Notes: generated from the sequence alone by a model not told the origin. A stretch of DNA of 64,000 bases from an uncultured Geobacter sp. (GCA_964622705.1 CAZUSH010000005.1:11389-75388); one strand, 5' to 3'. Counted from the stretch's first letter, positions 9,079 through 52,101 are shown. A program made the numbers and translations.

Positions 9079-9081
9079 CGG

Positions 9082-10436: not shown

Positions 10437-10461
10437 GCTCAGGACCCTCCTTTGAGAGGCG

Positions 10462-10947: not shown

Positions 10948-11030
10948 CGCATCACGTACCCTTTTGCCGAATATTCAGCAGTATACCCGAAGTTTGGCAG
11001 CAACAACAGCTTTTCAAACAGGGGGGGTAA

Positions 11031-13866: not shown

Positions 13867-14029
13867 TATGGCTAAAAGTATTTTTGATAACTGCAGTTTT
13901 GAATCCCCGGATTAAACGTCTCACATTATTTTAGAACAATGTTAGTAGATCTACTTGCCTTTTTCAGCAGCTTTGCTCTAAGATGCCCTCATTTTCGTGC
14001 CGCTTCCCGGCGCTTATGGAGGTAACCCC

Positions 14030-29699: not shown

Positions 29700-30611
29700 A
29701 TGGCCCACAGCATGGTGGTGATAGCGGTACTGTTCCTGCTGGGTCTACTGTCCGGCTGTACCAGAGAGCCGGATATTCAAGGACCCCGGGTTGGAACAAA
29801 GCTCCCCGGCGCCGGGAAGCCGGTTTTCAGTTTCGCGGTCCATCCTCTGCATAATCCCGCCAAATTGATTGCGGCGTACCAGCCTCTGATTGACTACCTG
29901 AACAGCAACATGCAGGGCGCACACCTGAGCCTGGAGGCGTCACGGGATTACGCCAGCTTTGAACAGAAATACCTGGCCCGGAAACCCGCCTTCATCCTCC
30001 CCAACCCCTGGCAGACGCTGCAGGCTGAAAAGGCCGGGTACCACGTCATTGCCATGGCGGGGGAACCAGGCGATTTTACGGGCATCTTTATCGTGCGCCG
30101 TGATAGCGGCATCAAGACCCCGGCCGACCTGAAAGGGAAGGCGGTCAGTTATCCCTCCCCCTCGGCCCTGGCGGCCTGCATCATGCCGCAGTATTTTCTG
30201 CATACCCACGGTATCGACGTCACGAAAGCGATTGAAAACCGCTACGTAGGCTCCCAGGAATCCTCCATCATGAATGTCTATCTGGGCAAGACCGCTGCCG
30301 GCGCCACCTGGCCGGTGCCGTGGCGCGCCTTTCAGCGGGAGCATCCCGCAGAGGCCGCACAGCTGAAGATGCTTTGGGAAACGGAGCCGCTGATCAATAA
30401 CTCGGTCATGGCGCGCAATGACATGCCGCCTCAGCTGGTCGCACAGGTGCAACAGTTGCTGCTTAATCTGGAACAGGCGCCCGGCGGCAAGGCGATTCTG
30501 CTTGGGATGGAAACCGCGCGGTTTCTGCCCGCCGATAATGCGCGTTATGAGCTGGTACGCGCCTATGTTGCCCGTTTTGAACGGAACGTGCGACCGGTGG
30601 AGGCGCCTTGA
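29700..30611 (+). CDS. PhnD-like periplasmic substrate-binding lipoprotein (orphan)
   Basis: Lipobox LLSGC; FAVHP, DLKGKAVSYPSPSALAA, YVGSQESS. Confidence 0.88.
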   Translation: MAHSMVVIAVLFLLGLLSGCTREPDIQGPRVGTKLPGAGKPVFSFAVHPLHNPAKLIAAYQPLIDYLNSNMQGAHLSLEASRDYASFEQKYLARKPAFILPNPWQTLQAEKAGYHVIAMAGEPGDFTGIFIVRRDSGIKTPADLKGKAVSYPSPSALAACIMPQYFLHTHGIDVTKAIENRYVGSQESSIMNVYLGKTAAGATWPVPWRAFQREHPAEAAQLKMLWETEPLINNSVMARNDMPPQLVAQVQQLLLNLEQAPGGKAILLGMETARFLPADNARYELVRAYVARFERNVRPVEAP

Positions 30612-33448
30612 TGCTCACTACCCTGTATCGATTGCTGACCAAGACCCTGCGGGGTCGGCTGATCATTGGTGTTGCGCTGGTGCATGCGTTCATGATGGCG
30701 CTGTTCGTCGCCGACCTGACCAAACGTCAGCGTGCCATGCTGCTGGAGCACCAGGCCGATCATGCGATATCCCTGTCGCAGACCCTGGCCACTTCCGCGG
30801 CTGGCTGGATCGCTGCCGACGATATTGCCGGGTTGCAAGAACTGGTAGAGGTGCAACGGCGCTATCCTGATCTTGTTTTTGCCCTGCTGACCGACCGGCA
30901 AGGGCTGGTGCTGGCGGATACGGACAGCGCCAGGCGGGGACTCTACCTGCAGGATCTTTCCGGAGAGGTCCGCCAGCAGGTCTTCTCCCGCAGCGGGGCA
31001 CTGGTGGACGTGGCGACTCCGGCGTTCATCGGAGGACGGCACGTCGGCTGGGCGCGGGTCGGTATCGGCCAGAAAAAGGTTGGGCAGGAACTGGCTGCCA
31101 TCACCAGGAACGGTATAGGCTATGCCGTAGCGGCCATCCTGCTTGGCTCCGTCATCGCCTGGTTCATGGGGACACGGATCAGCAGGCGGCTCTATGCCGT
31201 GCAAAAGACCATTGACCGCATCGGATCAGGCGAGCGGACGGCCCGTACGCTGCTGGACGGAGTGGATGAAGCCGCTGTCATGGCGCGGGAGTTCAACGCC
31301 ATGCTGGACCAGCTGGACGAACGCGATGCCGAACTGCGGAGCAGTGAAGAACGCTACCGCTCGCTGATCCGAAAGGTACCGGCGGCAATCGTCCTGCATG
31401 ACGGGCAGGGCAGGATTCTGGACAGCAATCCGTTGGCCGGGGAGCTGCTGGGACTTTCCGCCGACCAACTCGTCGGCAGAGAACTGATCGATCCCCAGTG
31501 GCACTTTCTCCGTGAGGACGGTTCACTCCTGCCGGTGGATCAGCTGCCGGCAGCACAGGTTATCGCAACGCGGCAGGCGATCAGCAATCTGATCGCCGGT
31601 ATCCGGCGCCCTGACCGGGACCAGCTTGCCTGGGTGCTGATCAGTGCTGAACCTGAATTTGATGCGTCCGGTGACGTTCGGCGCGTCATCGTTTCGTTCA
31701 TCGACATCTCCGAGCGTAAACGGACGGAGCAGCAGCGGCTGGGCAACCTGCCCTTTTTTGAGAGCATGGATCGGATCAACCGTGTGCTGCAAGGAACCGC
31801 CGACCTTGAAGAGATGCTGGATGCCGTGCTTGATGCCGTACTTTCGGCCTTCGGCTGCGACCGGGCCTTCCTGCAGCACCCGTGCGACCCTGCTGCGCCG
31901 TCTTGGCTCGTAGCGGCGGAACGTTGCCGCCCCGGTTATCCGGGGATGTCGGAACCGGGGCAGGAAATGCCGATAACTCCGGAGGTAGCCGAAACAGTTC
32001 AAATCATGCTGGATGCCGACGGACCGGTCTGTTTCGGTCCGGGCAGCTCCTATCCGCTTCCTGCTGACACGGCTAAACGTCTCGGCTTCAAGAGCTTCAT
32101 GGCCATAGCCATCCGCCCCAGAAGCGGCGCAGTCTGGCTGTTCGGCATCCACCAGTGCTCCTACGCCCGCACCTGGACCGAAGGGGAACAACGGCTTTTT
32201 CAGGAAATCGGCAGACGACTGGCCGACAGCATGAGCACGCTGCTGATCTGCCGGACCCTGCAAGAGAGCCAGGAACGCTATCGCCTGGTGTTTGAAAACT
32301 CGCCGGTCTCAATCTGGGAAGAGGACTTTTCCGAGGTGCGGGTCTTCTTCGACATGCTTCGAGCCGGGGGCATTGAAGATATTGCGGCCTACTTCGATCA
32401 GCACCCCGAGGAGGTGGCACACTGTGCCGAAAAGGCGCGTATTGTCGACCTCAACCGCAGTACTGTGCTGTTACATGGCGCCGACAGCAAGGAGACGTTG
32501 CTTGCCGGATTGGTCCAGACCTTTACCCCGGACTCCTTTGACGCCTTCCGGCAGGAACTGATCTGTCTCTGGAACGGCGATACCCGGATGGTACGGGATG
32601 CCGAGGTCAAGACCCTTGCAGGGGAGCCGCGGCAGGTAACCGTGCACTTCTCAGTCTGCCCGGGCTATGAGCAGAGCCTTGCCAAGGTGCTGGTATCGTT
32701 GGTGGATGTTACTGAGCGCAAACGGGCTGAGGAGGAGGTTCGCCTGAATCTGGCGCAACAGATGGCGCTACTGGATGTCTATCAAAAGATGCCTACAGCG
32801 CAAGTGCCTGAAATAATATCGTTTGTCGTGGATAAGTGTGTCAGCCTGACCGAAAGCATGATCGGTTTTGTCGGGATTATCAGTGACGACGACAGCTTCA
32901 TGGAGGCCCATTTGTGGTCTGCCCGGGTCATGGAGAGCTGCCCCATCGATAAACCGCTCCGCTTCCCGCTCAGCGATGCCGGACTCTGGGCCGGACCGGT
33001 CAGACAACGCCGTGTCGTCACCGTCAACGACTATGCGGCAGACAATCCGCTGAAAAAGGGCTATCCGGCGGGGCACCTCTCGCTGACCCGTTTCATGGGG
33101 GTGCCGCTGATCGACAATGGCCGGGTTGCGGCGGTTGCCGCTGTAGCGAACAAGCACGAGCCCTACGACGATGCTGACCACTACAAGATCTCGTTGATGC
33201 TGAAGGGGATGTGGGACATCATGAAGCGGAAGATGGCCGAAGAAGCGCTGCACACGCTCAACGAAGAGCTTGAGCAGCGGGTTCGGTTACGCACCGCCGA
33301 GCTGGCCGAAAAACATGATGAGCTGCAGCGGATGAACAAGATGTTTGTCGGTCGGGAGCTGCGGATGGTGGAGCTGAAGGAACGGGTCAGGGAGCTGGAG
33401 GCAGGCGCAGGCATGCCTCCAGCCGCCGTTGCAGGAGGTTCCAAATGA
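30611..33448 (+). CDS. Sensor-only protein 1: TM-periplasmic-TM-HAMP-PAS-GAF-PAS-GAF + 'VGREL' cap; no kinase domain
   Basis: HAMP (DEAAVMAREFNAM), PAS/PAC (SFIDISERK, VDVTERK), two GAFs; ends MNKMFVGRELRMVELKERVRELE; no H/N/G boxes. Confidence 0.88.
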   Translation: MLTTLYRLLTKTLRGRLIIGVALVHAFMMALFVADLTKRQRAMLLEHQADHAISLSQTLATSAAGWIAADDIAGLQELVEVQRRYPDLVFALLTDRQGLVLADTDSARRGLYLQDLSGEVRQQVFSRSGALVDVATPAFIGGRHVGWARVGIGQKKVGQELAAITRNGIGYAVAAILLGSVIAWFMGTRISRRLYAVQKTIDRIGSGERTARTLLDGVDEAAVMAREFNAMLDQLDERDAELRSSEERYRSLIRKVPAAIVLHDGQGRILDSNPLAGELLGLSADQLVGRELIDPQWHFLREDGSLLPVDQLPAAQVIATRQAISNLIAGIRRPDRDQLAWVLISAEPEFDASGDVRRVIVSFIDISERKRTEQQRLGNLPFFESMDRINRVLQGTADLEEMLDAVLDAVLSAFGCDRAFLQHPCDPAAPSWLVAAERCRPGYPGMSEPGQEMPITPEVAETVQIMLDADGPVCFGPGSSYPLPADTAKRLGFKSFMAIAIRPRSGAVWLFGIHQCSYARTWTEGEQRLFQEIGRRLADSMSTLLICRTLQESQERYRLVFENSPVSIWEEDFSEVRVFFDMLRAGGIEDIAAYFDQHPEEVAHCAEKARIVDLNRSTVLLHGADSKETLLAGLVQTFTPDSFDAFRQELICLWNGDTRMVRDAEVKTLAGEPRQVTVHFSVCPGYEQSLAKVLVSLVDVTERKRAEEEVRLNLAQQMALLDVYQKMPTAQVPEIISFVVDKCVSLTESMIGFVGIISDDDSFMEAHLWSARVMESCPIDKPLRFPLSDAGLWAGPVRQRRVVTVNDYAADNPLKKGYPAGHLSLTRFMGVPLIDNGRVAAVAAVANKHEPYDDADHYKISLMLKGMWDIMKRKMAEEALHTLNEELEQRVRLRTAELAEKHDELQRMNKMFVGRELRMVELKERVRELEAGAGMPPAAVAGGSK
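33260..33401 (+). repeat. VGREL cap copy 1 (142 bp)
   Basis: Near-identical to 37597-37738; colinear with the other four copies. Confidence 0.9.
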
Positions 33449-35781
33449 GCGTTGACAGACTCATTTTCAGGCACCACACAATGGGTATGCTCGGGCTGTT
33501 GTTCATGCTTACGCCGGCACCCGGCCAGGCAGCCGAGTTGGCCGACATGGATATTGCCGAACTGGTGAACGTGCGGGTGACTCCCTTTGACGTTTCGGCC
33601 CATCTGGACTGCGGCTACCGTGCTTCCAACTCCGTATCGGGGTCTCGATTTGACACCCCGATACGGGATCTGCCTTTTGCCATCCAGGCCTTTACCGAAG
33701 AGTTCATCAAGGACCAGAAGCCGGTGAACATCTTTGATGTGGCACGGTATTCACCGGGTGTTACCTACCGCAGCAATGACTTTAACGAAGGCAATGCCAA
33801 CGTGGCCATTCGCGGCTTTGCGGTCAGTTCCACTCCCGGTAACGTCCAGATCCTGCGCGACGGCTTCCATGGCCCCTCGATCTTCGATTTCACCAACATC
33901 TCCCGGGTGGAGGTGGTCAAGGGACCTGCCTCGTTCCTCTACGGCCAAGTTGCTCCCGGTGGTGTTGTCAATGTGATTACCAAGAATCCGCAACCGGTTT
34001 TTGCCGCAACCGCCGAGTCCCGCTACGGTTCTTACGGCCAGTATCGTTTTGAAGGGGACGTGACCGGTCCGGCAACCAAAACTCTCTTCTACCGGCTCGC
34101 GAGCTCCTATGACCAGGATAGTCATTACTGGAACCCCTACGATGCACATTCCTGGGACGTTGCGCCCTCGCTGCTCTGGCAACCCAATGACCGCCTGAGC
34201 GTATCGCTCAAATATGAGACCTTTCAGAAGCTGGAAACACCGCAGTTGATGCAGAAGCCGGGTTACAACACCCAGGCCGGTGTTGTGCCGACAGCAAGCG
34301 ATCCCAATCTGTCCGGGGTTGATGTGCCGGGATTGCCGGATACCTGGAACAGCATGTCCTATGCCGATTTTCGAAGAAGCGAGACCCATGCCTTCAGCAG
34401 TTGGATTGACTTCAAGGCCGGCTCGCACTGGAACCTGCGGGCCGGTTATTCGCACCTGGAGTACGAGATCGACGCGCTCTTCTCCGGCAACCTTGGTATG
34501 GCCAACAACAGCACATTTCTGCAGGGACGCCGCTTCAGGCGTCAGACATACAACAATCAGGACGATACGGTTCAGTTGGATGGCGTTGGAGCCTACAACC
34601 TTACCTGGAGCAATTTACGCCTGCTCTTTGGTGGACAGTATGTCGATAGACGTTTTGACAGTCGTGCCGGCCAGGCTCCCAACGACCCGGCTCTTGGCAG
34701 CAATCCCACGGCCTCGCCGCTGCCGCTCTGGGATTTGCGAGATCCTTCTACCTGGAACCGAGTGGTAACCATCCCGCTTTCTGCGCTGACAGAGAACAGG
34801 TCTGACAACTCACTCGCGGCGACGGACATGTCGGTTTACGGCGGGATAAACTGGAGTTTCCTGAATGACCGCTTGCTGGTGCTTGCCGGTCTGCGCCTGA
34901 CGGCAACGGAAAGCCGCCTTACGAATCAGCTGACCGGCCAATCCCAACCCAGGATCACTGCAAACGCGCTTACTCCGCAATACGGCTTGCTCTACAAGGT
35001 TACACCGGGGCTCTCACTGTTTGCCTCCTATGCCGAATCGTTCGTACCCGGCACACAATTGCTCAATACGATTGACGGGAACACCAGGGCCGCCGAACCG
35101 ACCAGGGGATGGGGCTACGACGCCGGTCTCAAGGCGGATCTGTTCGACGGCCGTGTCTCCGGCACGCTCACCTGGTTCGATATTCGCAACCAGAACATTG
35201 TCAACGACCTTGCCGTGACAAACTCGTCCGGCTCCGTGGTTATCTACAACGTACAAAGTGGCGAACAGCGCTCCAGCGGCGTTGAGCTTGACGTCACGAT
35301 CACGGCAACGGACAACTGGCAGCTCTATCTTTCCTACAGTTACATGGATGCAAAAATAACGGAATTCAGCGGAAACGACGCTGCTATCCTTGCCCAGAAT
35401 CCTGCCACCCTGGATGCCGCAGGATTGGCCAACTACAAAAACGTGAAACGGTTCCATAACGCCCCATTACAGATGAGCGCTCCCCATCTGGTCAACTTCT
35501 GGACCCGCTACAACTTTAGTGAGAGTACCCTCACAGGGGCCTACGTGGGTGGCGGCATCAACTTTGTCTGCGATCAGACCCTGCTGCCCGATACCCCGGA
35601 GTCGGCACACCAAACCTATGTCCTGGTCAATGCGCTGGCCGGTTACGCATGGAAGTGGGGAGGCCACAGACTTAATCTGGAATTGACGGGAAAAAACCTA
35701 GCCGACGAGCAGTACCGGCCATCGCAAAGTTCACGCAGCCGTCCCCGTGAATTCCTGCTGACACTTACCGCCAGGTTCTGA
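33445..35781 (+). CDS. TonB-dependent outer-membrane receptor
   Basis: Plug (IRGF, VEVVKGPASFLYG), barrel ending LTARF; N-terminal DMDIAELVNV motif. Confidence 0.92.
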   Translation: MSVDRLIFRHHTMGMLGLLFMLTPAPGQAAELADMDIAELVNVRVTPFDVSAHLDCGYRASNSVSGSRFDTPIRDLPFAIQAFTEEFIKDQKPVNIFDVARYSPGVTYRSNDFNEGNANVAIRGFAVSSTPGNVQILRDGFHGPSIFDFTNISRVEVVKGPASFLYGQVAPGGVVNVITKNPQPVFAATAESRYGSYGQYRFEGDVTGPATKTLFYRLASSYDQDSHYWNPYDAHSWDVAPSLLWQPNDRLSVSLKYETFQKLETPQLMQKPGYNTQAGVVPTASDPNLSGVDVPGLPDTWNSMSYADFRRSETHAFSSWIDFKAGSHWNLRAGYSHLEYEIDALFSGNLGMANNSTFLQGRRFRRQTYNNQDDTVQLDGVGAYNLTWSNLRLLFGGQYVDRRFDSRAGQAPNDPALGSNPTASPLPLWDLRDPSTWNRVVTIPLSALTENRSDNSLAATDMSVYGGINWSFLNDRLLVLAGLRLTATESRLTNQLTGQSQPRITANALTPQYGLLYKVTPGLSLFASYAESFVPGTQLLNTIDGNTRAAEPTRGWGYDAGLKADLFDGRVSGTLTWFDIRNQNIVNDLAVTNSSGSVVIYNVQSGEQRSSGVELDVTITATDNWQLYLSYSYMDAKITEFSGNDAAILAQNPATLDAAGLANYKNVKRFHNAPLQMSAPHLVNFWTRYNFSESTLTGAYVGGGINFVCDQTLLPDTPESAHQTYVLVNALAGYAWKWGGHRLNLELTGKNLADEQYRPSQSSRSRPREFLLTLTARF

Positions 35782-35848
35782 GATGCTGTTAAGAGCTACC
35801 GTACATAGGCCAGTGAAGCCGGGCTGCTGCGCAGCAGAAGACGGCGAC

Positions 35849-36469
35849 ATGCGGCATGCTTCCGCGCCGCTGAGTATCCGGCAGCAGATTGGCCCGCTGC
35901 TGCGGCGCTACGCTCCAGCCATGTTGTTAGTCCTGTTTTACCTGTATTGCCTTGCAAGTCCGGCAATCGGTCAAGAGTTTGCCAAAGCTGACCCGATCAG
36001 GATTGAAGCGGCGATTTTACGCAATTTTGCCCGCTACGTCACCTGGCCGCACCATGCCTTCAAAGATACTCATCTGGCTTGGCGTATCTGCATCCTCGGG
36101 GATGATCCATTTGGCCAGGTACTGGAAAAGACCTTTGAAGGACGTACGGAACAGGGACGTTCGTTTCAGGTATTCCGGGCAGAGACGCTGGAAGAACTAC
36201 CGCCGTGCCAGATCGTCTTTATCGCCTATCAAGACGCTGCAAAACGCCGTGCGGTCCTGGAACTGCTTAAGAAGCAACCGGTCCTGACCGTGAGTGCTGC
36301 CCCTGACTTTTTGCAAGAAGGGGGGATCATCCGCTTCAAGGTCACAGATCGGGTGGAGATGAGCGTCAACCTTGATCAGGCCCGCTCCTCCTCGCTGAAG
36401 ATTCAAACCAAGATGCTTGAGGTTTCCCGTGAAGTGCTGGAGAACGGAATCGTACGGAGGTTGAGATGA
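35849..36469 (+). CDS. YfiR/DUF4154-family periplasmic protein
   Basis: IEAAILRNFARYVTWP, ICILGDDPFG, CQIVFI, PVLTVS, GGIIRF, VNL; start uncertain (35783 possible). Confidence 0.9.
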   Translation: MRHASAPLSIRQQIGPLLRRYAPAMLLVLFYLYCLASPAIGQEFAKADPIRIEAAILRNFARYVTWPHHAFKDTHLAWRICILGDDPFGQVLEKTFEGRTEQGRSFQVFRAETLEELPPCQIVFIAYQDAAKRRAVLELLKKQPVLTVSAAPDFLQEGGIIRFKVTDRVEMSVNLDQARSSSLKIQTKMLEVSREVLENGIVRRLR

Positions 36470-37770
36470 TCCGGCTTCACGGCATGAGCATACACAACAG
36501 GCTGACATTTGCACTCTGGTGCGCTGCGCTCTTTGCCTTTGCCGCAGCAGGCGTGGCGTTGGCGCTGTTTGAGAACCTCACGCAGGAGGGACGTGCACGC
36601 CAGATCATGGAACCGTACGCGCAGCTCGTTTCCGCCGGGGCTGAAACGGCAATAGCCTTTCAGGACTCCGTGCGGGCTGAAGAGATTCTCACGCCACTGC
36701 GGGCCAATGCGCAGATTTTGACAGCAGAAATCGTTTTGCGGGATGGACGGATGTTAGCCCGCTACAGCAGTGCCGGTACCCCTTTGCAAGCCCAGCCGCT
36801 TAAACCGGACGGGATCCACCTGAGTCATGACACGGCGGAGCTGATACAGAGGTTGCATGACGATGCCCATCTGCGCCTTGTCATGAGCCTGGGTGAGCTT
36901 AACCGGCAGATGAGAAACATGCTGCTGCTCTTTGCCGCAGGGATGCTTGTCTTGCTGGTGGTCGTTACGTTGGGGTTGCGTGCGGCCCTGCAACGCGTCA
37001 TTGTCCAGCCCATCTCCGCCCTGGCCGAGACGGTTGAACAGGTTCGTATCAGGGCTGATTATCATCAACGTGTCCCGGTCTTCGGCAACGATGAGGTGGC
37101 ACGGCTCGGCCGGAGCTTCAACGCCATGATGGAGGCTGTTCAGGTGCGGGAAGATAATTTGCGTCAACTTGCGATCTTTCAGAGCACTATTCTGGACAAT
37201 GCGGCCTACGGCATCATTGCCACCACTACCGAAGGGGTTGTCAGCAGCTTTAACCGGGCAGCTGAACAGTTACTCGGCTACCGGGCCGATGAACTGGTCG
37301 GCAGACAGACGCCGATCTGCTGGCATGAAGCAGGGGAGCTGGCGCAGTACGCGCTTCATCTCTCCACAGAGCTGTCCGAAACGGTTCAGCCCGGATTTGA
37401 GGTGTTTACGACCCGTCCCCGGCGCAACCAGCCGGAAGAACATGAATGGACCTTTATCCGTAAGGACGGGACGCGTGTGCCGGTGTTGCTCTCTGTAACG
37501 GCATTGCGGGATGAAAACCGTCAGATCATTGGATTTGCCGGTCTGTGCTATGATCTCACGGAACGCAAACAGGCAGAGGAAGAACTCCGCCAACTGAACG
37601 AAGAGCTTGAGCAGCGGGTATGGTTACGTACCGCCGAACTGGCCGAAAAAAACGATGAGCTGCAGCGGATGAACAAGATGTTTGTCGGTCGGGAGCTGCG
37701 GATGGTGGAGCTGAAGGAACGGATCAGGGAACTGGAGGAACAGCTCCGGACAAACGGCAACGAAGCCTGA
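36466..37770 (+). CDS. Sensor-only protein 2: CHASE8-like-HAMP-PAS + VGREL cap
   Basis: AIAFQDSVRAEEILTPLRANAQI...DGRMLARY, HAMP (DEVARLGRSFNAM), PAS; ends FVGRELRMVELKERIRELE. Confidence 0.88.
   Translation: MIRLHGMSIHNRLTFALWCAALFAFAAAGVALALFENLTQEGRARQIMEPYAQLVSAGAETAIAFQDSVRAEEILTPLRANAQILTAEIVLRDGRMLARYSSAGTPLQAQPLKPDGIHLSHDTAELIQRLHDDAHLRLVMSLGELNRQMRNMLLLFAAGMLVLLVVVTLGLRAALQRVIVQPISALAETVEQVRIRADYHQRVPVFGNDEVARLGRSFNAMMEAVQVREDNLRQLAIFQSTILDNAAYGIIATTTEGVVSSFNRAAEQLLGYRADELVGRQTPICWHEAGELAQYALHLSTELSETVQPGFEVFTTRPRRNQPEEHEWTFIRKDGTRVPVLLSVTALRDENRQIIGFAGLCYDLTERKQAEEELRQLNEELEQRVWLRTAELAEKNDELQRMNKMFVGRELRMVELKERIRELEEQLRTNGNEA
37597..37738 (+). repeat. VGREL cap copy 2
   Basis: Only about ten mismatches to copy 1 by manual comparison. 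Confidence 0.9.
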
Positions 37771-38873: not shown

Positions 38874-40448
38874 ATGGTGGCCTCACGAAGCCCGATCATC
38901 GATAAGGTTGACAGAAAACTGGCCTTCAGTTTTGGCGCCGTGGTGCTGGTGCTGATGCTGCTGGTCACCGGAACCTCAAGTTACCTGTTCATCAGGCTGC
39001 AGTCACTGGAGGAGGATCGCCTGTCCGGGGCACTTGCGCGGATCATCGCTGAGTCGGTCAGTAAGGTCAGTTTTTCCGGCACCTACCATGCTCGACTCTT
39101 TGTTGAAGAGATCAAGGCCAAGAGTCCGGAAATCCGTTCCGTCTCACTGATATCACGGGAAGGCCGGATCATTGCCCACAGTAATCCGGCCCGCAACGGT
39201 GCGACCCTGACCGGCGAAGACCTTGCCATGCTCAGGCAGTCCTTGGCCCAAAACACGGCTGTGTCCGGTGAACGATACGCAAACGGCAACAAGGAAAAGG
39301 TTATCCTCCTTCCCTATGGCGGGGGTATCGACGCTGAAATCAACGGCGTAATACGGTTGATCATCGATGTTGCCAAAGTCAGGCAGGAACAGCGTGCCGG
39401 CATCGTTACGATGGTGGTGATTGCAACGCTACTCTCCTGTGCAGCGGTCGTACTGATTCTGCTGCTCAGCCGCTACTTCGGCTCCGCCGTCAAGGAACTG
39501 GCCATGCAACTGCAGGCAATTTTGGACAACTCGCCGGCCCTGATCTATGTCAAGGACCGGACAGGACGCTATCAGTTCGTCAACCAGGCCTGGTGCAGAC
39601 TCTTCCAGACCAGCAACGACAACGTCAAGGGCAAGACCGATCGTGAGCTGTTTCCCGAAGAGGTTGCGCTCCAGTTTATGACAAATGACCAGCGGGTGAT
39701 GACGTCCGATAGGCAACTGACCCTGGAAGAACAACTGCCGGTGGATGAAGAGATCCGCCACTACCACAGCATCAGGGTGGCTGTGCGGGACACCAACGGC
39801 GCTACCTACGGACTTTGCGGTATATCAACGGACATCTCTGAACGCAAGAAGGCTGAAGAAACACTCCGGGAAAGTGAAGAACGGCTCCAGCTTGCCACCC
39901 AGGCCGCCGGCATCGGGATCTGGGACTGGGATGTGGTCAGAAACAGACTGCTCTGGGATGAAAGCATGTACCGGCTCTACGGGCTTCGACGCGAAGATTT
40001 CAACGGCGCGTATGAGGCCTGGTTCCGCTGCATCCATCCCGATGACGCAGCGTTGACGGATCATGCCATCCAGGCCGCCCTGAGCGGCGAAAAGGAGTAC
40101 GCCCCGGAGTTTCGCATCGTTCGACCGGACGGCGCTGTCCGGCTTATCCAGGCAGCCGCCAAGACCTTCCGGGATCAGGAGGGTAAACCGCTGCGCATGA
40201 TCGGCATCAATCTGGATATCACCGAACAAAAACAGTCGGAAGAGAGGATTCGGCTCTTGAACGAGCAGCTTGAACAGCGGGTGCAGGAGCGCACCGCCGA
40301 GCTGGAGCAGAAAAACAGCGAGCTTGAGCGGATGAACAAACTTTTTGTCGGCCGGGAGTTGCGGATGATGGAATTGAAGGAGCGGATCAGGGAGCTGGAG
40401 GGCGCCATGTGCACTGCGGACGTCACCAGGCCGGCCAAGGGCGATTAA
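38874..40448 (+). CDS. Sensor-only protein 3: TM-periplasmic-TM-PAS-PAS + VGREL cap
   Basis: Two TMs, PAS (KDRTGRY...TDISERK), PAS_3 (GIWDWD...IHPDD...LDITEQK); ends FVGRELRMMELKERIRELE. Confidence 0.88.
   Translation: MVASRSPIIDKVDRKLAFSFGAVVLVLMLLVTGTSSYLFIRLQSLEEDRLSGALARIIAESVSKVSFSGTYHARLFVEEIKAKSPEIRSVSLISREGRIIAHSNPARNGATLTGEDLAMLRQSLAQNTAVSGERYANGNKEKVILLPYGGGIDAEINGVIRLIIDVAKVRQEQRAGIVTMVVIATLLSCAAVVLILLLSRYFGSAVKELAMQLQAILDNSPALIYVKDRTGRYQFVNQAWCRLFQTSNDNVKGKTDRELFPEEVALQFMTNDQRVMTSDRQLTLEEQLPVDEEIRHYHSIRVAVRDTNGATYGLCGISTDISERKKAEETLRESEERLQLATQAAGIGIWDWDVVRNRLLWDESMYRLYGLRREDFNGAYEAWFRCIHPDDAALTDHAIQAALSGEKEYAPEFRIVRPDGAVRLIQAAAKTFRDQEGKPLRMIGINLDITEQKQSEERIRLLNEQLEQRVQERTAELEQKNSELERMNKLFVGRELRMMELKERIRELEGAMCTADVTRPAKGD
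40260..40401 (+). repeat. VGREL cap copy 3
   Basis: Colinear; Phe codon at offset +84 as in all copies. Confidence 0.85.
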
Positions 40449-43229: not shown

Positions 43230-43879
43230 GTGCGCACGACAAACCATCCGAAACGATTTTCTCGATGCTCACCATCACGGCCCTGGTGCTCGGTATCTAC
43301 ATCAGCGGCCAGTATAGCTTTCTTTTGTTCCACGGACTCGTCGAGCTCGTCAGCATGTATGACGTTGCCAACAAGCTCGGCCACATCGCCAAGCTGGTGG
43401 CGTTCTATCTGATGTACCGGGCGATACTCGTCACCGGTCTCAAGGAACCTTTTGAAGTTGTCTTCAGAACGTAAAAGCCAACGGAACAGGAACTGCGCGA
43501 GTACCAGGAAACCCTGGAAGAACGGATCAGGGAACGGACCGTGCAACTGGAACTTGAAATCACCGGACACAAACAGACCGAGGAAGCGCTTCAGCTTCAA
43601 ACCGCCGGACTTGGACAGGAGATGGCCAAGCGGCAGAGGGCGCAAGAGGCGCTGCAGCAAAAGGCGATCCTGTTGAAAAAAGAGAGCGAAAAACGGCAAC
43701 AGGCTCAGGAAGAACTGGAAAAATTGAACGAGCAACTGGAGCAGCGGGTACAGCAGCGTACTGCCGAACTGGAGGCAAAAAACGTCGAACTATCCCGCAT
43801 GAACAAGATCTTCGTCGGTCGAGAGCTGAAGATGATCGAGCTGAAAGAGCGGATCAGAGAGCTGGAAAACGAGAGGTAA
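43226..43879 (+). pseudogene. Sensor-only protein 4 (pseudogene): internally deleted MASE3 + in-frame TAA + VGREL cap
   Basis: 43226-43474 and 43541-43879 are in the same frame, separated by TAA at 43472; MASE3 N- and C-ends joined directly. Confidence 0.8.
43727..43868 (+). repeat. VGREL cap copy 4
   Basis: MNKIFVGRELKMIELKERIRELE; colinear. Confidence 0.85.
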
Positions 43880-48453: not shown

Positions 48454-50412
48454 ATGACCTTTTCATTGTCTCCCCTCATGCTGCTTTTGCTGCTTTCGAT
48501 CGCCATTCAGGCTGCTGCGGCAATCATGGCGATCCGCCTGATCGGCATTACCGGCAGGCGGGTTGCCTGGTGCCTGATCGTTACGGCACTGCTGCTGATG
48601 TCGGTACGACGGATAATACCGCTCTATCGTCTGCTGGTCGGGGAGCAGCCTTATACGCCGGACCTGTTGAACGAACTGATCGGGTTGGCTTTGTCATGTG
48701 CCATGGCCATAGGCCTTGCGCTGATAGCGCCGCTTTTTCTGGAACGTAAACGGGTAGAAGATGAGCTGCGCCTTACTGCCGACGAGATGCGGGATCTGTA
48801 TGATCATGCCCCCTGTGGCTATCACTCTCTGGATGACGACGGTCGCTTTGTCCGCATCAATGCCACCGAGCTGCAGTGGCTGGGGTATCAACGGGATGAA
48901 GTCGTTGGCAGGATGCGCTTTGCCGACCTGCTGACGCCGCGCAGCACGCAGGTTTTTGCAGATACGTTCCCGCGTCTTAAACAGGAGGGACGGGTCAAGG
49001 ATCTGGAGTTGGAGCTGGTGCGCAAGAACGGTACGATCTTGTCGGTGCTGTTGAGCGCCAGCGTGGTGCTCAATCGGGACGGCAGTTGTCTGATGAGCCG
49101 TTCGACCGTCTTTGATATCAGCGACCGTAAGAAAAACGAGGAGGCGGAACACGTGTTGAGTTCAATCGTCGAGTCATCGGACGATGCCATCATCGCCAAG
49201 GACCTGCAGCAGACCATCCTTGCCTGGAACAAAGGGGCGGAGCTGCTCTACGGCTATACAGCCGAGGAGGCGCTGGGGCGCTCGGTCATCATGTTGGTCC
49301 CGCCGGAGCGGTACGGTGAGCTGAACGACATCATGGCAACGATTCGGAGCGGGGAACGAGTCGAGCATTTAGTGACCGAGAGAATACGCAAGGGGGGGGA
49401 GCGGATCTCGGTGTCGTTGACCGTATCGCCGATCAGGGATGCAGACGGTGAGATTCTAAGGGCTTCGGTTGTTTCACGCAATATCACGGAAGAGATGCAG
49501 CTGGCCGCACAACTGAAACAGCAGCAGCTTCATCAGGAAGAGCTGGTGCAGCAGCGCACAATGGAGTTAATGGAGCGCAGCCGCGAATTGCAGGAAAACC
49601 AACAGGCCCTGATGAACATCGTGGATGACCTGAACCAGAAAACTGAAGAGTTGGAACAGGCCAACGCCAAGTTGCAGGAACTGGATCAACTGAAATCCTT
49701 GTTCATCGCCTCCATGAGCCATGAACTGCGTACCCCGCTTAACTCGATCATCGGCTTCTCCAGTATCCTGAAGGATGAATGGCTCGGCCCGATCAACCAG
49801 GAACAAAAGGAGAATCTGGCCACCATACTGCGTTCCGGGAGGCATCTGCTCAACCTGATCAACGATGTGATCGATGTCTCCAAGATTGAGGCGGGCAGAA
49901 TCGAAGTACGCCTTGAGGAATTTGATCTGTACGACCTGTTGAAGGAAGCGGTACAATACGTTGAAAACGATGTTCGCGAGAAAGGCTTGAGGCTTGAACT
50001 GCAGTTGCAGCACCATGCCCTGCGCACCGATCGGCGCAGGCTTTTGCAGAGTGTGCTGAATTTTTTGAGCAATGCCGTCAAGTTCACAGAGCGGGGCTGC
50101 ATAACCCTTGCGTCGAGCATTGAGGCCGCCCGTCCGGAAAGACCGGGGTGCGTTGCCATCTCGGTCGTCGACACCGGTATCGGCATTGCAGAAGCCGATA
50201 TCGAGCGACTTTTCAGGCCGTTTGTACGCTTGGAGTCCCCCCTGAAAACCTTGGCGCCGGGGACCGGGCTCGGTCTGTATCTGACCAAGAAATTGATTGA
50301 GGATGTACTGGACGGGACCATCACCTGTACCAGCACACACGGTGCAGGAAGCACCTTTACCCTGACGATTCCGGAGCGGCTCAATGAAAAAGGTACTGGT
50401 TGTAGAGGATAA
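48454..50412 (+). CDS. Histidine kinase: 3TM-PAS-PAS-long coiled coil-HisKA-HATPase
   Basis: SMSHELRTPLNSIIGFS, NFLSNAVKFT, VVDTGIGI, FRPF, GTGLGL; no attached REC. Confidence 0.93.
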   Translation: MTFSLSPLMLLLLLSIAIQAAAAIMAIRLIGITGRRVAWCLIVTALLLMSVRRIIPLYRLLVGEQPYTPDLLNELIGLALSCAMAIGLALIAPLFLERKRVEDELRLTADEMRDLYDHAPCGYHSLDDDGRFVRINATELQWLGYQRDEVVGRMRFADLLTPRSTQVFADTFPRLKQEGRVKDLELELVRKNGTILSVLLSASVVLNRDGSCLMSRSTVFDISDRKKNEEAEHVLSSIVESSDDAIIAKDLQQTILAWNKGAELLYGYTAEEALGRSVIMLVPPERYGELNDIMATIRSGERVEHLVTERIRKGGERISVSLTVSPIRDADGEILRASVVSRNITEEMQLAAQLKQQQLHQEELVQQRTMELMERSRELQENQQALMNIVDDLNQKTEELEQANAKLQELDQLKSLFIASMSHELRTPLNSIIGFSSILKDEWLGPINQEQKENLATILRSGRHLLNLINDVIDVSKIEAGRIEVRLEEFDLYDLLKEAVQYVENDVREKGLRLELQLQHHALRTDRRRLLQSVLNFLSNAVKFTERGCITLASSIEAARPERPGCVAISVVDTGIGIAEADIERLFRPFVRLESPLKTLAPGTGLGLYLTKKLIEDVLDGTITCTSTHGAGSTFTLTIPERLNEKGTGCRG

Positions 50413-50785
50413 CAGCGATAATCTGCGCTTGATCAGCTATGCCCTGCGTCGCTGCGGTTACGAGGTGCTAGCTGCCGATACCGGTGAAAAGGGGGTGGAA
50501 CTGGCTGTCAGCGAGCACCCCACCTTCATCATCATGGATATCAACCTGCCCGATATCGACGGCCTGGAGGCCACTCGGCGCATCCGCAAAAGCGGGGCCA
50601 ACGGCAGTATCCCGATTATTGCCATCACCTCCTACGCCATGGCCGGCGATATGGATCAGGTATTGTCTGCCGGTTGCACCGGTTATTTTGAAAAGCCGAT
50701 CGATCCGTTGACTATCATGGACAAGATCCATGCCCTGTTGGGTATCGTGTCGCCGAACGCGGACGGAACGGGGGACTCGCCATGA
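50384..50785 (+). CDS. Single-domain response regulator (DivK-like)
   Basis: VVED, IMDINLPDIDG, AITSYA, FEKP. Confidence 0.93.
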   Translation: MKKVLVVEDNSDNLRLISYALRRCGYEVLAADTGEKGVELAVSEHPTFIIMDINLPDIDGLEATRRIRKSGANGSIPIIAITSYAMAGDMDQVLSAGCTGYFEKPIDPLTIMDKIHALLGIVSPNADGTGDSP

Positions 50786-52101
50786 AGGTTCTGATTGTTG
50801 AAGACAACGCAAGCGCCAGAAAGCTGTTACGGTTGACGCTTGAGCACTACGGTTGCACGGTGATCGAGGCCCAGGATGGGGTGGAGGGGCTGGAACTGGC
50901 AGGTTGCCACACACCGGAGGTTATCATCTCAGATGCCCTGATGCCGCGCATGGATGGTTTCCAATTGCTCAGGGCCCTTAAAGCGGAGCCGGCGCTGCAA
51001 TCCATCCCGTTCATCTTTTACTCATCCACCTACACCGGCGAGAAGGAACAGACGTTGGCCCTTTCGCTCGGCGCTGAGGCATTTATTAACAAGCCGGTGG
51101 AGCCAACTGAGCTGTGGGAACGTACCTGTGCCATCATGCGAGATTGGGAATCGCGCCGGAAGACGCCGGCCCATCCGGTGGAGCAACGCAAAGATGAACA
51201 ATTTCTGCGCGAGTACAGCCAGGTGGTGGCCACCAAGCTGGAGGAAAAAGTCAGTGAGTTGGAAGATGCGCTGGCCTTGCGTAAACAGGCTGAAGAAGAA
51301 CTCCGGCGTCTGAATAATGAACTGGAGCAGCGCGTTGCCCTTGAGGTGGAAAAAAACCGGGCCAAGGATCATATTCTGGCCCACCAGGCCCGTCTGGCCG
51401 CCATGGGTGAAATGCTCAGCAATATTGCCCATCAGTGGCGCCAGCCCCTAAATAATGTCGCCTTGATTATTCAGAATCTGCAGGCTGAATTTACCGATAA
51501 ATGCCTGACTCAGGCCGCCTGCGACGAATTTACGGAGGAATGCCTGAAGATGCTGGGGTATCTGTCGCACACGATCGACACCTTCTGCGGATTTTATCAA
51601 CCTGACCACGAGCGGCAGTCGTTTGAGTTGAGGCAGGCCATCGCCGAGTCGCTTGGGCTGGTCCAGGCCGATCTTGAGGCCTGCGGCATTGTCGTCTCGC
51701 TGGCTACATCGTGCGATCTGGTCATTCACGGCTACCGCAAAGAGTTTTTGCAGGTGCTGTTGAGTCTCGTGCAGAATGCCAAGGAAGCGCTCTTGCTGCA
51801 GCAGCCGTCTCAGCCGTTGATAGAAATCAGCTGTTTACAGGAGGGAGAGCGTGCCGTGCTCAAGGTTGCCGATAACGGCGGTGGCATCCCGCCTGAGGCT
51901 ATGGATAAGATCTTCGATCCTTACTTCACGCGTAAATTTAAGGCGCAAGGGGTGGGAATGGGCCTCTATATGGCCAAAATGATTATTGAGAGGCATATGG
52001 GCGGTCATATTGCCGTCGCTAACCGGTCCGATGGCGCCGAAGTAACCATCAGCCTCCCGTTGGCAGGAGTCTCTGAGTACACAGGGGGCGTTCAGAAGTA
52101 A
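50782..52101 (+). CDS. N-terminal receiver + histidine kinase
   Basis: VED, ISDALMPRMDG, NKP; IAHQWRQPLN, DNGGGI, FDPYFT, GVGMGL. Confidence 0.92.
   Translation: MKVLIVEDNASARKLLRLTLEHYGCTVIEAQDGVEGLELAGCHTPEVIISDALMPRMDGFQLLRALKAEPALQSIPFIFYSSTYTGEKEQTLALSLGAEAFINKPVEPTELWERTCAIMRDWESRRKTPAHPVEQRKDEQFLREYSQVVATKLEEKVSELEDALALRKQAEEELRRLNNELEQRVALEVEKNRAKDHILAHQARLAAMGEMLSNIAHQWRQPLNNVALIIQNLQAEFTDKCLTQAACDEFTEECLKMLGYLSHTIDTFCGFYQPDHERQSFELRQAIAESLGLVQADLEACGIVVSLATSCDLVIHGYRKEFLQVLLSLVQNAKEALLLQQPSQPLIEISCLQEGERAVLKVADNGGGIPPEAMDKIFDPYFTRKFKAQGVGMGLYMAKMIIERHMGGHIAVANRSDGAEVTISLPLAGVSEYTGGVQK

What the first reader, a model, noticed from the sequence alone, without database searches (positions are those of the whole stretch)
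33445..37770. TonB receptor-YfiR-CHASE8 trans-envelope module whose transducer has no catalytic output
Seen: TBDR with an N-terminal 'DMDIAELVNV' motif, then YfiR/DUF4154, then (ATGA overlap) CHASE8-like-HAMP-PAS-cap. Established: in YfiBNR, YfiR represses the periplasmic domain of the diguanylate cyclase YfiN. Here the GGDEF/kinase position is occupied by the VGREL cap. Inference: outer-membrane ligand sensing is relayed into the shared-kinase network. This is the clearest case that the cap substitutes for an output domain.
Basis: partly seen in the sequence, partly recalled or inferred. Interest (0 to 1): 0.63.

Follow-up and report, generated by a model that had tools for sequence, protein, structure and literature searches.

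The report
TonB receptor-YfiR sensor lacking a kinase
Three tightly packed genes encode an outer-membrane receptor, a periplasmic YfiR-like protein and a membrane sensor that ends in a conserved helix instead of an enzyme; comparison with other genomes suggests that this helix plugs the sensor into a separate kinase encoded further down the same operon.

Summary
33445-35781 encodes a TonB-dependent receptor (TBDR), 35783/35849-36469 a YfiR-like DUF4154 protein, and 36466-37770 a CHASE8-HAMP-PAS protein. That protein ends in one long helix with no kinase or GGDEF domain. The genes overlap by ATGA and all are under purifying selection.

The TBDR/YfiR-like/CHASE8 trio recurs across phyla. NCBIfam catalogues a sister lineage (NF053590-2), and I found no experimental paper on it. 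Orthologous sensors about 65% identical carry HisKA-HATPase exactly where this one has the "cap".

The cap is an S-helix plus an undescribed tail, FVGRELRMVELKERIxELE. It lies at the extreme C-terminus in 148 of the 150 best-scoring cluster representatives (1,596 match at E<=1e-10). In this genome all six copies lie in one array.

Every one of 28 cap-bearing genomes also has a kinase with a 28-residue insert (ESQxALMNIVEDLNxKT) before its H-box. In about 20 of them this kinase lies just downstream of the caps. None of 155 cap-free genomes has a strong match to the insert.

Best reading: a YfiBNR-like envelope sensor whose signal leaves through the cap, which docks on the hub kinase at 48454-50412. 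The docking is inferred, not shown. A new variant of known kinds; moderately high interest.

The parts
33445..35781 (+). TonB-dependent receptor, 778 aa: signal peptide, conserved N-terminal block, plug, 22-strand-type barrel. No STN signalling domain.
   Evidence: Pfam Plug + TonB_dep_Rec_b-barrel. Nearest NCBIfam model is TonB-siderophor, 186 bits, below its cut-off; NF053590 gives only 40.6 bits. Nearest solved relatives are FhuA, FpvA and FoxA. Orthologs in trio loci are 64-77% identical. dN/dS 0.09.
33544..33573 (+). The 'DMDIAELVNV' motif, part of the conserved block ADMDIxELVxVRVSPFDVS. Probably a TonB-box region (inference).
   Evidence: Conserved in 14 of 16 aligned TBDRs. The two others (L003, L008) belong to another TBDR lineage with LDIEQLSRVRI.
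35849..36469 (+). YfiR-like periplasmic protein (DUF4154). The ORF is open from 35783; the likely start is M23 at 35849.
   Evidence: PF13689 at 139 bits. NF053591 (TOL_0243 YfiR-like) at 118.9 bits, cut-off 125. P. aeruginosa YfiR structures 4ZHU and 4YN7 at E about 1e-3 over the whole domain, with the two Cys of 'ICILG' and 'PCQIVF' aligned. Orthologs 56-76% identical. dN/dS 0.25.
36466..37770 (+). Sensor-only transducer, 434 aa: TM, CHASE8, TM, HAMP, PAS, then a long C-terminal helix (the cap). No catalytic domain.
   Evidence: Pfam. NF053592 'HK_near_YfiR_like' N-terminal domain at 107 bits, below its cut-off of 194. AlphaFold2 model, mean pLDDT 85.8, with a single helix over residues 365-429. 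dN/dS 0.24.
37585..37683 (+). S-helix part of the cap (about residues 374-406: LRQLNEELEQRVWLRTAELAEKNDELQRMNKMF). The ERT signature reads LRT here.
   Evidence: Profile-profile match to the S-helix of kinase orthologs, probability 97-98%, covering only this part. The ERT signature is as described in PMC1592074.
37684..37737 (+). Cap tail VGRELRMVELKERIRELE (residues 407-424), the family-defining and undescribed part.
   Evidence: G, R, E, M, E, L and K are invariant in 142 cluster representatives. No Pfam or PDB match. dN/dS 0.16-0.18.
48454..50412 (+). Hub-type histidine kinase (TM, PAS, PAS, S-helix, 28-aa insert, HisKA, HATPase). Proposed receiver of the cap.
   Evidence: Pfam. Its core is 54-68% identical to the kinase part of fused CHASE8 kinases (L007, L010, L015, L018) and to the kinases downstream of every capped trio.
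49582..49683 (+). Insert RELQENQQALMNIVDDLNQKTEELEQANAKLQEL between the S-helix and the H-box. Proposed 'socket'.
   Evidence: It is the only match in the genome. Found in 28 of 28 cap-bearing genomes and in 0 of 155 cap-free genomes at E<=1e-6.
50384..50785 (+). Single-domain receiver whose start overlaps the end of the hub kinase. Probable cognate regulator.
   Evidence: ORF and overlap. A REC follows the hub-type kinase in L003, L005, L007, L010, L014 and L025.
50782..52101 (+). REC-HisKA-HATPase second-tier kinase.
   Evidence: Pfam. The same gene follows in L003, L005 and L010.
33233..33445 (+). Cap of the upstream sensor (30608-33448; sCache_3_2-HAMP-PAS-GAF-GAF-cap). 88% identical in DNA to the cap of the CHASE8 sensor.
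40233..40445 (+). Cap of sensor 38874-40448. Further caps lie at 43700-43876 (broken gene), 45722-45898 and 48217-48420.
   Evidence: These six are the only caps in the 3.67-Mb genome.

Best explanation
The three genes form one envelope-spanning sensing unit related to YfiBNR. The periplasmic YfiR-like protein is the partner of the sensor's CHASE8 domain, as YfiR is for YfiN. A TonB-dependent receptor stands where YfiB stands in the classical system.

I favour, narrowly, a partner-switch mechanism. The ligand-dependent, TonB-energised state of the receptor decides whether the YfiR-like protein is free to hold the CHASE8 domain. The alternative is that the receptor imports a ligand, which the YfiR-like protein then presents to the sensor.

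The signal passes through HAMP and PAS into a 65-residue helix. The sensor has no enzyme of its own. Its output is the cap, which is an S-helix continued in register by the conserved tail FVGRELRMVELKERIxELE.

The cap associates with the hub kinase encoded at 48454-50412. That kinase carries a matching 28-residue insert (ESQxALMNIVEDLNxKT) at the same position after its own S-helix, just before the phospho-accepting His. The association sets the hub's autokinase activity. The hub then phosphorylates the overlapping single-domain receiver (50384-50785), which is followed by a REC-kinase (50782-52101). Five other capped sensors of the array, each with its own periplasmic partner or membrane module, feed the same hub.

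Shown: domain content, conservation, gene order, replacement of the kinase by the cap in orthologs, and strict co-occurrence and adjacency of cap and insert.

Inferred: all physical contacts, the direction of regulation, and the role of the TBDR.
For: Trio:
- The TBDR, YfiR-like gene and CHASE8-HAMP-PAS sensor lie in this order in 14 of 17 loci from Geobacter, Pelobacteraceae, Methylobacter, Methylomonas, Opitutaceae, Lacunisphaera, Desulfobacterales and Zixibacteria. In two more loci the contig ends before the third gene. TBDR identity is 64-77%.
- The same genome has a second locus, CHASE8-HAMP-GGDEF / YfiR-like / TBDR.
- NCBIfam holds models for such a trio.

Cap replaces the kinase:
- Orthologs P0013-P0120 carry HisKA-HATPase after the same S-helix.
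- The cap is under purifying selection, dN/dS 0.16-0.18.

Cap as a module:
- 1,596 clusters (at 50% identity) match at E<=1e-10. The cap ends a median of 5 residues from the C-terminus in 80 of the best 150 measured; in 148 of the 150 it ends within 17 residues of the C-terminus.
- It occurs on PAS, GAF, REC, Cache, MASE3 and binding-protein architectures.

Link to the hub kinase:
- All six caps of this genome lie in one array upstream of the hub.
- Every capped trio (window, L003 Geotalea uraniireducens, L005, L014 and L025 Opitutaceae) is followed by a hub-type kinase plus a REC.
- In L007, L015 and L018 the same sensor is fused to that kinase core with the insert.
- The insert is present in 23 of 23 and 5 of 5 cap-bearing genomes. 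It is absent at E<=1e-6 from 44 + 12 + 100 cap-free genomes. One of these, G012, has a divergent cap next to a divergent insert.
- The insert-bearing kinase lies on the same strand just downstream of the caps in about 20 genomes.
- Natural control: L010 has a hub-like core without the insert, and its genome has no caps.

Register: cap and insert differ at every core 'd' layer in a complementary way (M/S, R/I, L/K, L/A). The invariant hub Asp at g(+24) faces the invariant cap Lys at e(+29).
Against: - No physical or genetic experiment exists for any component. I found no paper on the trio or on the cap.
- Co-occurrence may partly reflect inheritance of one mobile operon rather than a direct contact. 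Distribution is patchy: 23 of 151 genomes in the order, and 1 of 101 in the Opitutaceae order.
- The receiver and the hub's PAS domains co-occur just as strictly and could be the true partner.
- Divergent cap/insert pairs do not show clean covariation: G093 has a canonical cap with a divergent insert.
- A related 'type 2' tail with the same GRELRMIELK core occurs in genomes without the insert. The core motif therefore does not by itself require this kinase.
- The complex could not be modelled because the tool predicts only monomers. The AlphaFold model shows only a plain helix.
- The TBDR lacks a signalling (STN) domain, and nothing shows that it binds the YfiR-like protein.
Confidence: 0.5

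Rival explanations
1. The cap is only a dimerising, helix-terminating coiled coil. The sensor signals in another way, for example through PAS-PAS contacts with the hub kinase's two PAS domains, or by forming mixed membrane complexes.
For: AlphaFold predicts nothing but a continuous helix. The N-terminal half is an ordinary S-helix. PAS domains are present in every capped sensor and in the hub.
Against: A simple dimerisation helix needs conserved a/d positions only. Here G(c), E(e), L(f), E(c) and K(e) are invariant across 142 clusters whose sensor parts are unrelated. The strict link is with the insert, not with the hub's PAS content, which varies: L008 has a MASE1 kinase and L014 a Cache-GAF kinase.
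Confidence: 0.17
2. The cap binds the stand-alone receiver (50384-50785) or the REC-kinase, as the pseudokinase DivL binds DivK. The sensor would then act on or read out the regulator rather than the kinase.
For: A single-domain REC follows the hub kinase in all loci examined. The tail RELRM loosely resembles the H-box HELRT, which is a receiver docking site.
Against: Profile-profile comparison finds no similarity between the tail and the H-box helix; the alignment ends at the S-helix. A gapless register puts Gly, not Arg, at the His position (and my count). Response regulators that themselves end in the cap exist (L008 REC-PAS-cap, P0123), which fits an output plug better than a REC-binding site.
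Confidence: 0.1
3. Periplasmic half, import model. The TBDR is an ordinary transporter. The YfiR-like protein is a periplasmic ligand-binding co-receptor that docks on CHASE8 when loaded, like the solute-binding proteins paired with the neighbouring sensors. There is no receptor-YfiR contact.
For: The other capped sensors of the array are each preceded by a Phosphonate-bd or Peripla_BP_4 protein. The TBDR has a TonB-box-like strand and no STN domain, and the genome has TonB. Its nearest relatives are siderophore importers.
Against: The only established mode of YfiR is partner switching between the inner-membrane sensor and an outer-membrane protein (general knowledge of YfiBNR). Two unrelated TBDR lineages are both tied to YfiR-like/CHASE8, and the three genes travel together across phyla, which suggests more than shared regulation. 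Neither point is decisive.
Confidence: 0.35
4. The sensor is a decayed kinase gene or an assembly artefact and has no function.
For: Close relatives are full kinases. The array contains one broken capped gene (43226-43879). Assembly graphs break inside the repeated cap DNA.
Against: dN/dS is 0.24 for the gene and 0.16-0.18 for the cap. The same 432-556-aa capped proteins occur in independent assemblies and in the finished genome of Geotalea uraniireducens Rf4. Contigs from other runs cross the stop codon unchanged. More than 1,500 clusters share the cap.
Confidence: 0.03

Closest known systems
YfiBNR (TpbB/DgcN-YfiR-YfiB) of Pseudomonas aeruginosa and E. coli; HmsCDE of Yersinia
   Same: A periplasmic DUF4154/YfiR protein is encoded next to an inner-membrane protein with a CHASE8 periplasmic domain and a HAMP. 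A third, outer-membrane component lies in the same operon.
   Different: The outer-membrane partner is a 778-aa TonB-dependent receptor, not the OmpA/Pal-like lipoprotein YfiB. The transducer has a PAS domain plus a helical cap instead of GGDEF. The gene order is different.
NCBIfam trio NF053590 (TOL_0244 TBDR), NF053591 (TOL_0243 YfiR-like), NF053592 (sensor histidine kinase, YfiR-like protein-associated)
   Same: The same three-gene logic and order. The YfiR-like protein scores 118.9 bits, just under the cut-off of 125.
   Different: The TBDR is of another lineage (40.6 bits against a cut-off of 645). The sensor's N-terminal domain is below its cut-off (107 against 194). The sensor has no kinase. 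This is a sister lineage, and I found no experimental study of either.
Signaling helix (S-helix) of Anantharaman, Balaji and Aravind 2006 (PMC1592074)
   Same: The first roughly 33 residues of the cap are an S-helix with the R-T of the ERT signature, placed after a PAS domain.
   Different: The S-helix is described as a connector between two signalling domains. Here it is followed only by an 18-residue conserved tail and the stop codon.
Multikinase networks with kinase-modulating sensors (RetS/LadS/GacS of P. aeruginosa; DivL-DivK-CckA of Caulobacter)
   Same: A sensor protein that does not itself phosphorylate the output regulator is proposed to control another kinase through helix-helix contacts next to the DHp domain. 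Several sensors converge on one kinase.
   Different: RetS and DivL keep complete (pseudo)kinase domains. Here the whole transmitter is replaced by a short helix, and the receiving kinase carries a dedicated insert. The contact has not been shown.
FecA/FpvA-type TonB-dependent transducers with sigma/anti-sigma partners
   Same: An outer-membrane TonB-dependent receptor is genetically coupled to an inner-membrane signalling protein.
   Different: There is no N-terminal STN domain and no anti-sigma or ECF sigma factor. A soluble YfiR-like protein is the presumed go-between.

Membership tests
YfiBNR / HmsCDE | Periplasmic YfiR (DUF4154) protein | tested here: met
   PF13689 at 139 bits. Aligns with solved YfiR over the whole domain, E 8.5e-4.
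YfiBNR / HmsCDE | Inner-membrane partner with CHASE8 periplasmic domain and HAMP | tested here: met
   CHASE8 E 2.2e-13 and HAMP E 6.5e-11. The DgcN/YfiN model matches residues 9-234.
YfiBNR / HmsCDE | GGDEF diguanylate cyclase output | tested here: not met
   No GGDEF match. The protein ends in a helix.
YfiBNR / HmsCDE | Outer-membrane lipoprotein YfiB (OmpA/Pal-like) | tested here: not met
   The adjacent outer-membrane gene is a Plug + barrel TBDR. The same holds at the second locus on contig C53.
NCBIfam TBDR / YfiR-like / kinase trio (NF053590-2) | YfiR-like protein above the NF053591 cut-off | tested here: not met
   118.9 bits against a cut-off of 125. A near miss.
NCBIfam TBDR / YfiR-like / kinase trio (NF053590-2) | TBDR of the TOL_0244 family | tested here: not met
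   40.6 bits against a cut-off of 645.
NCBIfam TBDR / YfiR-like / kinase trio (NF053590-2) | Sensor N-terminal domain NF053592 and a histidine kinase output | tested here: not met
   107 bits against a cut-off of 194. No HisKA or HATPase.
NCBIfam TBDR / YfiR-like / kinase trio (NF053590-2) | Gene order TBDR, YfiR-like, sensor in one operon | tested here: met
   A 1-nt gap and an ATGA overlap. The same order is seen in 14 of 17 related loci.
Histidine kinase | H-box DHp domain and HATPase_c | tested here: not met
   No Pfam match. hhalign finds no similarity of the tail to the H-box helix.
S-helix | About 40-residue parallel coiled coil with an ERT signature between two signalling domains | tested here: inconclusive
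   Profile match at 97-98% probability and R-T present (E is L here). However, no domain follows it.
Capped sensor ('plug') family, undescribed in the literature searched | S-helix plus FVGRE(L)(R/K)MxELK tail within about 25 residues of the C-terminus, and no catalytic domain | tested here: met
Capped sensor ('plug') family, undescribed in the literature searched | Encoded upstream of a kinase with the ESQxALMNIVEDLNxKT insert | tested here: met
   The hub lies at 48454-50412 with the insert at 49582-49683.
TonB-dependent transducer (FecA type) | N-terminal STN signalling domain and an anti-sigma partner | tested here: not met
   No STN match at E<=0.01. No sigma or anti-sigma gene in the array.

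The most novel reading that the evidence does not exclude
Two unstudied signalling devices are joined here.

(1) The TBDR/YfiR-like/CHASE8 trio would be a distinct, TonB-linked way of carrying information from the outer membrane to an inner-membrane transducer through a soluble adaptor.

(2) The cap and the kinase insert would be a general 'plug and socket'. Through it, more than a thousand kinds of sensor-only proteins (PAS, GAF, REC, Cache, MASE3, CHASE8) would control one dedicated hub kinase by heterospecific coiled-coil pairing next to the phospho-accepting His. This would make the histidine kinase a multi-input device assembled from separate polypeptides.
Probability: 0.35. Interest if true: 0.82.

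Novelty: new variant of a known kind. Interest (0 to 1): 0.64.

Why it matters
If the reading holds, it shows how a bacterium can feed many unrelated sensors, including one that reports on an outer-membrane receptor, into a single two-component kinase. It would do so without fusing the sensors to the kinase, using a short, portable helix as the connector.

That would be a new rule for reading 'output-less' PAS/GAF/REC proteins, which are very common in Geobacter-like and other environmental genomes and are currently annotated only as 'PAS domain S-box protein'. It would also offer a compact part for rewiring sensors in synthetic biology.

It gives the unstudied TBDR/YfiR-like/CHASE8 trio a minimal, testable example in a cultured organism. 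Geotalea uraniireducens Rf4 has one TBDR, one YfiR-like protein, one capped sensor, one hub kinase, one receiver and one REC-kinase.

Tried and rejected
1. The tail as a degenerate H-box (RELRM against HELRT, His to Arg). MAFFT aligns them only with a gap. A gapless register puts Gly at the His position. hhalign of the cap profile against two DHp profiles stops at the S-helix. Rejected as unsupported.

2. A solved structure or Pfam family for the cap. None found. The whole sensor has no PDB sequence relative at E<=1e-5.

3. Literature. Searches for YfiR + TonB-dependent receptor + histidine kinase, DUF4154 + TonB, YfiR-like/CHASE8, YfiN + YfiR + TonB-dependent, and the peptide GRELRM gave nothing relevant.

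4. Truncation or assembly artefact. Rejected on dN/dS, independent assemblies and contigs from other runs.

5. Covariation between divergent caps and divergent inserts (G012, G093, G054, G101). They are always adjacent, but there are too few pairs and the pattern is not clean. Inconclusive.

6. AlphaFold2 monomer of the sensor. It gives a confident model, but the cap is simply one long helix, so it does not discriminate between mechanisms. Complexes could not be predicted with the tools at hand.

7. All three kinases of the array as a 'shared network'. Only 48454-50412 has the insert. 40464-43229 and 50782-52101 do not.

Full report
**What is there**

The window comes from a 3.67-Mb draft genome of a member of the Geobacterales. 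Its family includes a record titled 'Pelobacteraceae bacterium', and the sequence is found in activated-sludge metagenomes.

Between 29.7 and 52.1 kb, one same-strand array holds the following genes:
- a phosphonate-type binding protein plus a Cache-HAMP-PAS-GAF sensor;
- the three genes of the finding;
- a sugar-type binding protein plus a PAS sensor;
- a kinase with a fused periplasmic binding domain;
- a broken sensor gene;
- a MASE3-GAF-PAS sensor;
- another binding protein plus a HAMP-PAS-PAS sensor;
- a PAS-PAS kinase (48454-50412);
- a single receiver (50384-50785);
- a REC-kinase (50782-52101).

The finding's genes are as described. They are a Plug + barrel TonB-dependent receptor (33445-35781), a DUF4154/YfiR-like protein (35783 or, more likely, 35849 to 36469), and a CHASE8-HAMP-PAS protein of 434 residues (36466-37770) with no catalytic domain. 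ATGA overlaps couple the upstream sensor to the TBDR and the YfiR-like gene to the sensor. The next gene starts 16 nt after the sensor's stop, behind its own ribosome-binding site. An AlphaFold2 model (mean pLDDT 85.8) shows the periplasmic domain, HAMP and PAS, and then one uninterrupted helix over residues 365-429.

**The gene is real**

Against its ortholog in an independent metagenome (L005), dN/dS is 0.09 for the TBDR, 0.25 for the YfiR-like gene, 0.24 for the sensor and 0.18 for the cap alone. Against Geotalea uraniireducens the cap gives 0.16.

Contigs of other sequencing runs cross the stop codon and the junction with the next gene unchanged. Assembly graphs break inside the cap DNA only because three paralogous caps share a 69-nt identical stretch. 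Whichever way that repeat is joined, the gene ends in a cap.

**The trio**

A scan of one genome per species with an alignment of YfiR-like proteins returned 17 loci. They come from Geobacter, Pelobacteraceae, Methylobacter, Methylomonas, Opitutaceae, Puniceicoccaceae, Lacunisphaera, Desulfobacterales, Zixibacteria and others. In 14 of them a TBDR 64-77% identical to ours lies immediately upstream and a CHASE8-HAMP-PAS sensor (N-terminal part 47-67% identical) immediately downstream. In two more loci the contig ends before the third gene.

Two loci (L003, L008) use a different TBDR lineage with a similar short motif.

The same genome has a second locus on contig C53 with a YfiN-like CHASE8-HAMP-GGDEF cyclase, a YfiR-like protein and a TBDR. 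A TBDR in the place of YfiB is therefore a recurrent arrangement with interchangeable outputs.

NCBIfam already holds models for a sister trio (NF053590, NF053591, NF053592). Our proteins fall below their cut-offs, the YfiR-like one narrowly. I found no paper on the arrangement. Two TonB homologs are present elsewhere in the genome. The TBDR has no STN domain, and its nearest solved relatives are siderophore importers.

**The output position**

Of 816 relatives of the sensor, the closest are also kinase-less:
- P0002, 78% identical;
- P0005 of G. uraniireducens Rf4, 68%;
- others with extra PAS or GAF domains.

From about 65% identity downward, most are complete kinases of two DHp types. The alignment shows that all share the PAS domain and the helix LNxELEQRVxERTAEL. 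After that helix the kinases continue into the H-box, while the capped proteins continue for about 25 residues and stop.

**What the cap is**

Its first half is the S-helix with the R-T of the ERT signature (PMC1592074; hhalign probability 97-98%). Its second half, FVGRELRMVELKERIxELE, has no match in Pfam or the PDB. It also has no profile similarity to the H-box helix.

A profile of the six caps of the window finds 1,596 clusters (at 50% identity) with E<=1e-10 among 1.84 billion representatives. In the best 150 the match ends a median of 5 residues from the C-terminus in the 80 measured. In 148 of the 150 it ends within 17 residues of the C-terminus.

The carriers are very diverse. They include binding-domain-TM-PAS, REC-GAF, GAF, multi-PAS and, in L008, REC-PAS. 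In 142 representatives G, R, E, M, E, L and K of the tail are invariant, including positions that would face solvent in a plain dimer. This argues for a common binding partner.

**The partner**

In this genome the only six caps lie in this one array. In the Geobacterales, full caps occur in 23 of 151 genomes, nearly always as clusters of 2-10 on one contig.

The kinase that closes the array (48454-50412) has a 28-residue insert between its S-helix and its H-box (ESQxALMNIVEDLNxKTxELExAN). The same insert is in the kinases that follow the capped trios in G. uraniireducens, L005 and two Opitutaceae genomes. It is also in a MASE1 kinase with a different H-box in L008.

I searched for this insert as follows:
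- All 23 cap-bearing genomes have it, and 44 cap-free genomes of the order lack it. The single weak hit (G012) turned out to lie 500 bp after a divergent cap.
- Among the 17 genomes of the trio loci, the 5 with caps have it. Of the other 12, 11 have no match and one (G152) only a weak one at E 6.8e-4.
- Among 100 further genomes of the Opitutaceae order, none has either element.
- In about 20 genomes the insert-bearing kinase lies a few kb downstream of the caps on the same strand.

Three relatives of our sensor are fused directly to this kinase core with the insert (L007, L015, L018). L010 is fused to a similar core without the insert, and its genome has no caps. The association is therefore with the insert, not with the kinase type.

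**Register**

Counting from the Arg of ERT, which the S-helix paper places at a 'd' position, cap and hub are alike to +11 and then differ at each 'd' layer:

| Layer | Cap | Hub |
|---|---|---|
| +14 | M | S |
| +21 | R | I/L |
| +28 | L | K |
| +35 | L | A |

The invariant hub Asp at g(+24) would face the invariant cap Lys at e(+29). A cap homodimer would bury R against R, and a hub homodimer K against K. Mixed pairing relieves both. This is my inference from sequence. It is compatible with a mixed bundle but does not prove one.

**How it most likely works**

The YfiR-like protein is the periplasmic partner of the CHASE8 domain, by homology with YfiR-YfiN. The TBDR controls its availability. 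I narrowly favour YfiB-like sequestration over import of a ligand that the YfiR-like protein presents; the data do not separate the two.

The conformational signal runs through HAMP and PAS into the cap, which associates with the insert of the hub kinase and changes its autokinase state. The hub phosphorylates the overlapping receiver, and a REC-kinase follows. Several sensors share one hub.

Confidence is high (about 0.8) that this is a functional trio whose sensor has a non-enzymatic output. It is about 0.55 that the output acts on the hub kinase, and lower for the exact contact. Overall I put it at 0.5.

**Rivals**

- The cap as a mere dimerisation helix.
- The cap as a receiver-docking site.
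- The TBDR as a plain importer.
- Gene decay.

Each is weighed in the Rival explanations section. Only decay is close to excluded.

**Earlier notes of this scan**

I read these after my own co-occurrence tests. They describe the trio as widespread and unstudied (e1-1089107, e1-4894209 and others), and describe a 'docking helix' family upstream of one kinase type (e1-2326426). They agree with what I found, but they are unchecked AI notes, not independent evidence.

**Verdict**

The locus is a new variant that joins a catalogued but unstudied envelope trio to an undescribed sensor-only output module. It is worth an experiment, and Geotalea uraniireducens Rf4 offers the minimal version.

Noticed in passing
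L029, L030, L031, L032, L034 (genomes G130, G146, G131, G070, G008); also G154/G163 (Methylobacter): A second C-terminal tail family shares the core motif: ...EELRxxNEELxRFNxAxVGRELRMIELKxEINELCxxxGxPxRYPLDFEEG, without the ERT S-helix. It sits on kinase-less proteins such as CheB/CheR-fusion-PAS-PocR. Several of these genomes lack the 'ALMNIVEDL' kinase insert, so its partner is unknown.
   Followed up: partly
own genome contig C53, about 14.5-19.5 kb (L002 region): A second YfiR module is present: CHASE8-HAMP-GGDEF cyclase (419 aa), YfiR-like (173 aa), TBDR (796 aa). It is a YfiN-type cyclase with a TonB-dependent receptor instead of YfiB.
   Followed up: partly
L008:10319-11314; P0123; L027 (G012:C11): Some response regulators have the cap as their only output (REC-PAS-cap, REC-GAF-cap). 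This implies that phosphorylation can also be fed into the same hub kinase.
   Followed up: no
window 33233-33400 vs 37570-37737: The cap-encoding DNA of the two neighbouring sensors is 88% identical; other cap pairs are 58-76% identical. Three caps share an identical 69-nt stretch that breaks short-read assembly graphs. This suggests recent duplication or gene conversion.
   Followed up: partly
window 43226-43879: A short open frame (134 codons) carries an intact cap but no sensor domains. It is apparently a broken paralog of the MASE3 sensor that follows it.
   Followed up: no
L010 (Geobacter sp. UBA9964), 8751-11054 and 13106-15001: Two paralogous CHASE8-HAMP-PAS sensors lie in one locus. 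One is fused to a hub-like kinase core without the insert, the other to an HQWRQPLN-type kinase. The genome has neither caps nor insert.
   Followed up: partly
L003 (Geotalea uraniireducens Rf4, CP000698.1 1795073-1816743): This is the minimal version of the system: TBDR, YfiR-like, capped sensor (556 aa), a 43-codon ORF, a hub kinase (832 aa) without transmembrane segments, REC and REC-kinase. The TBDR here belongs to a different lineage from the window's.
   Followed up: partly
window 40464-43229: This kinase has a fused periplasmic ABC_sub_bind domain, a GAF domain and an HEINNP-type H-box. It sits inside the array but lacks the insert, so it is probably an independent input to the same receivers.
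   Followed up: no
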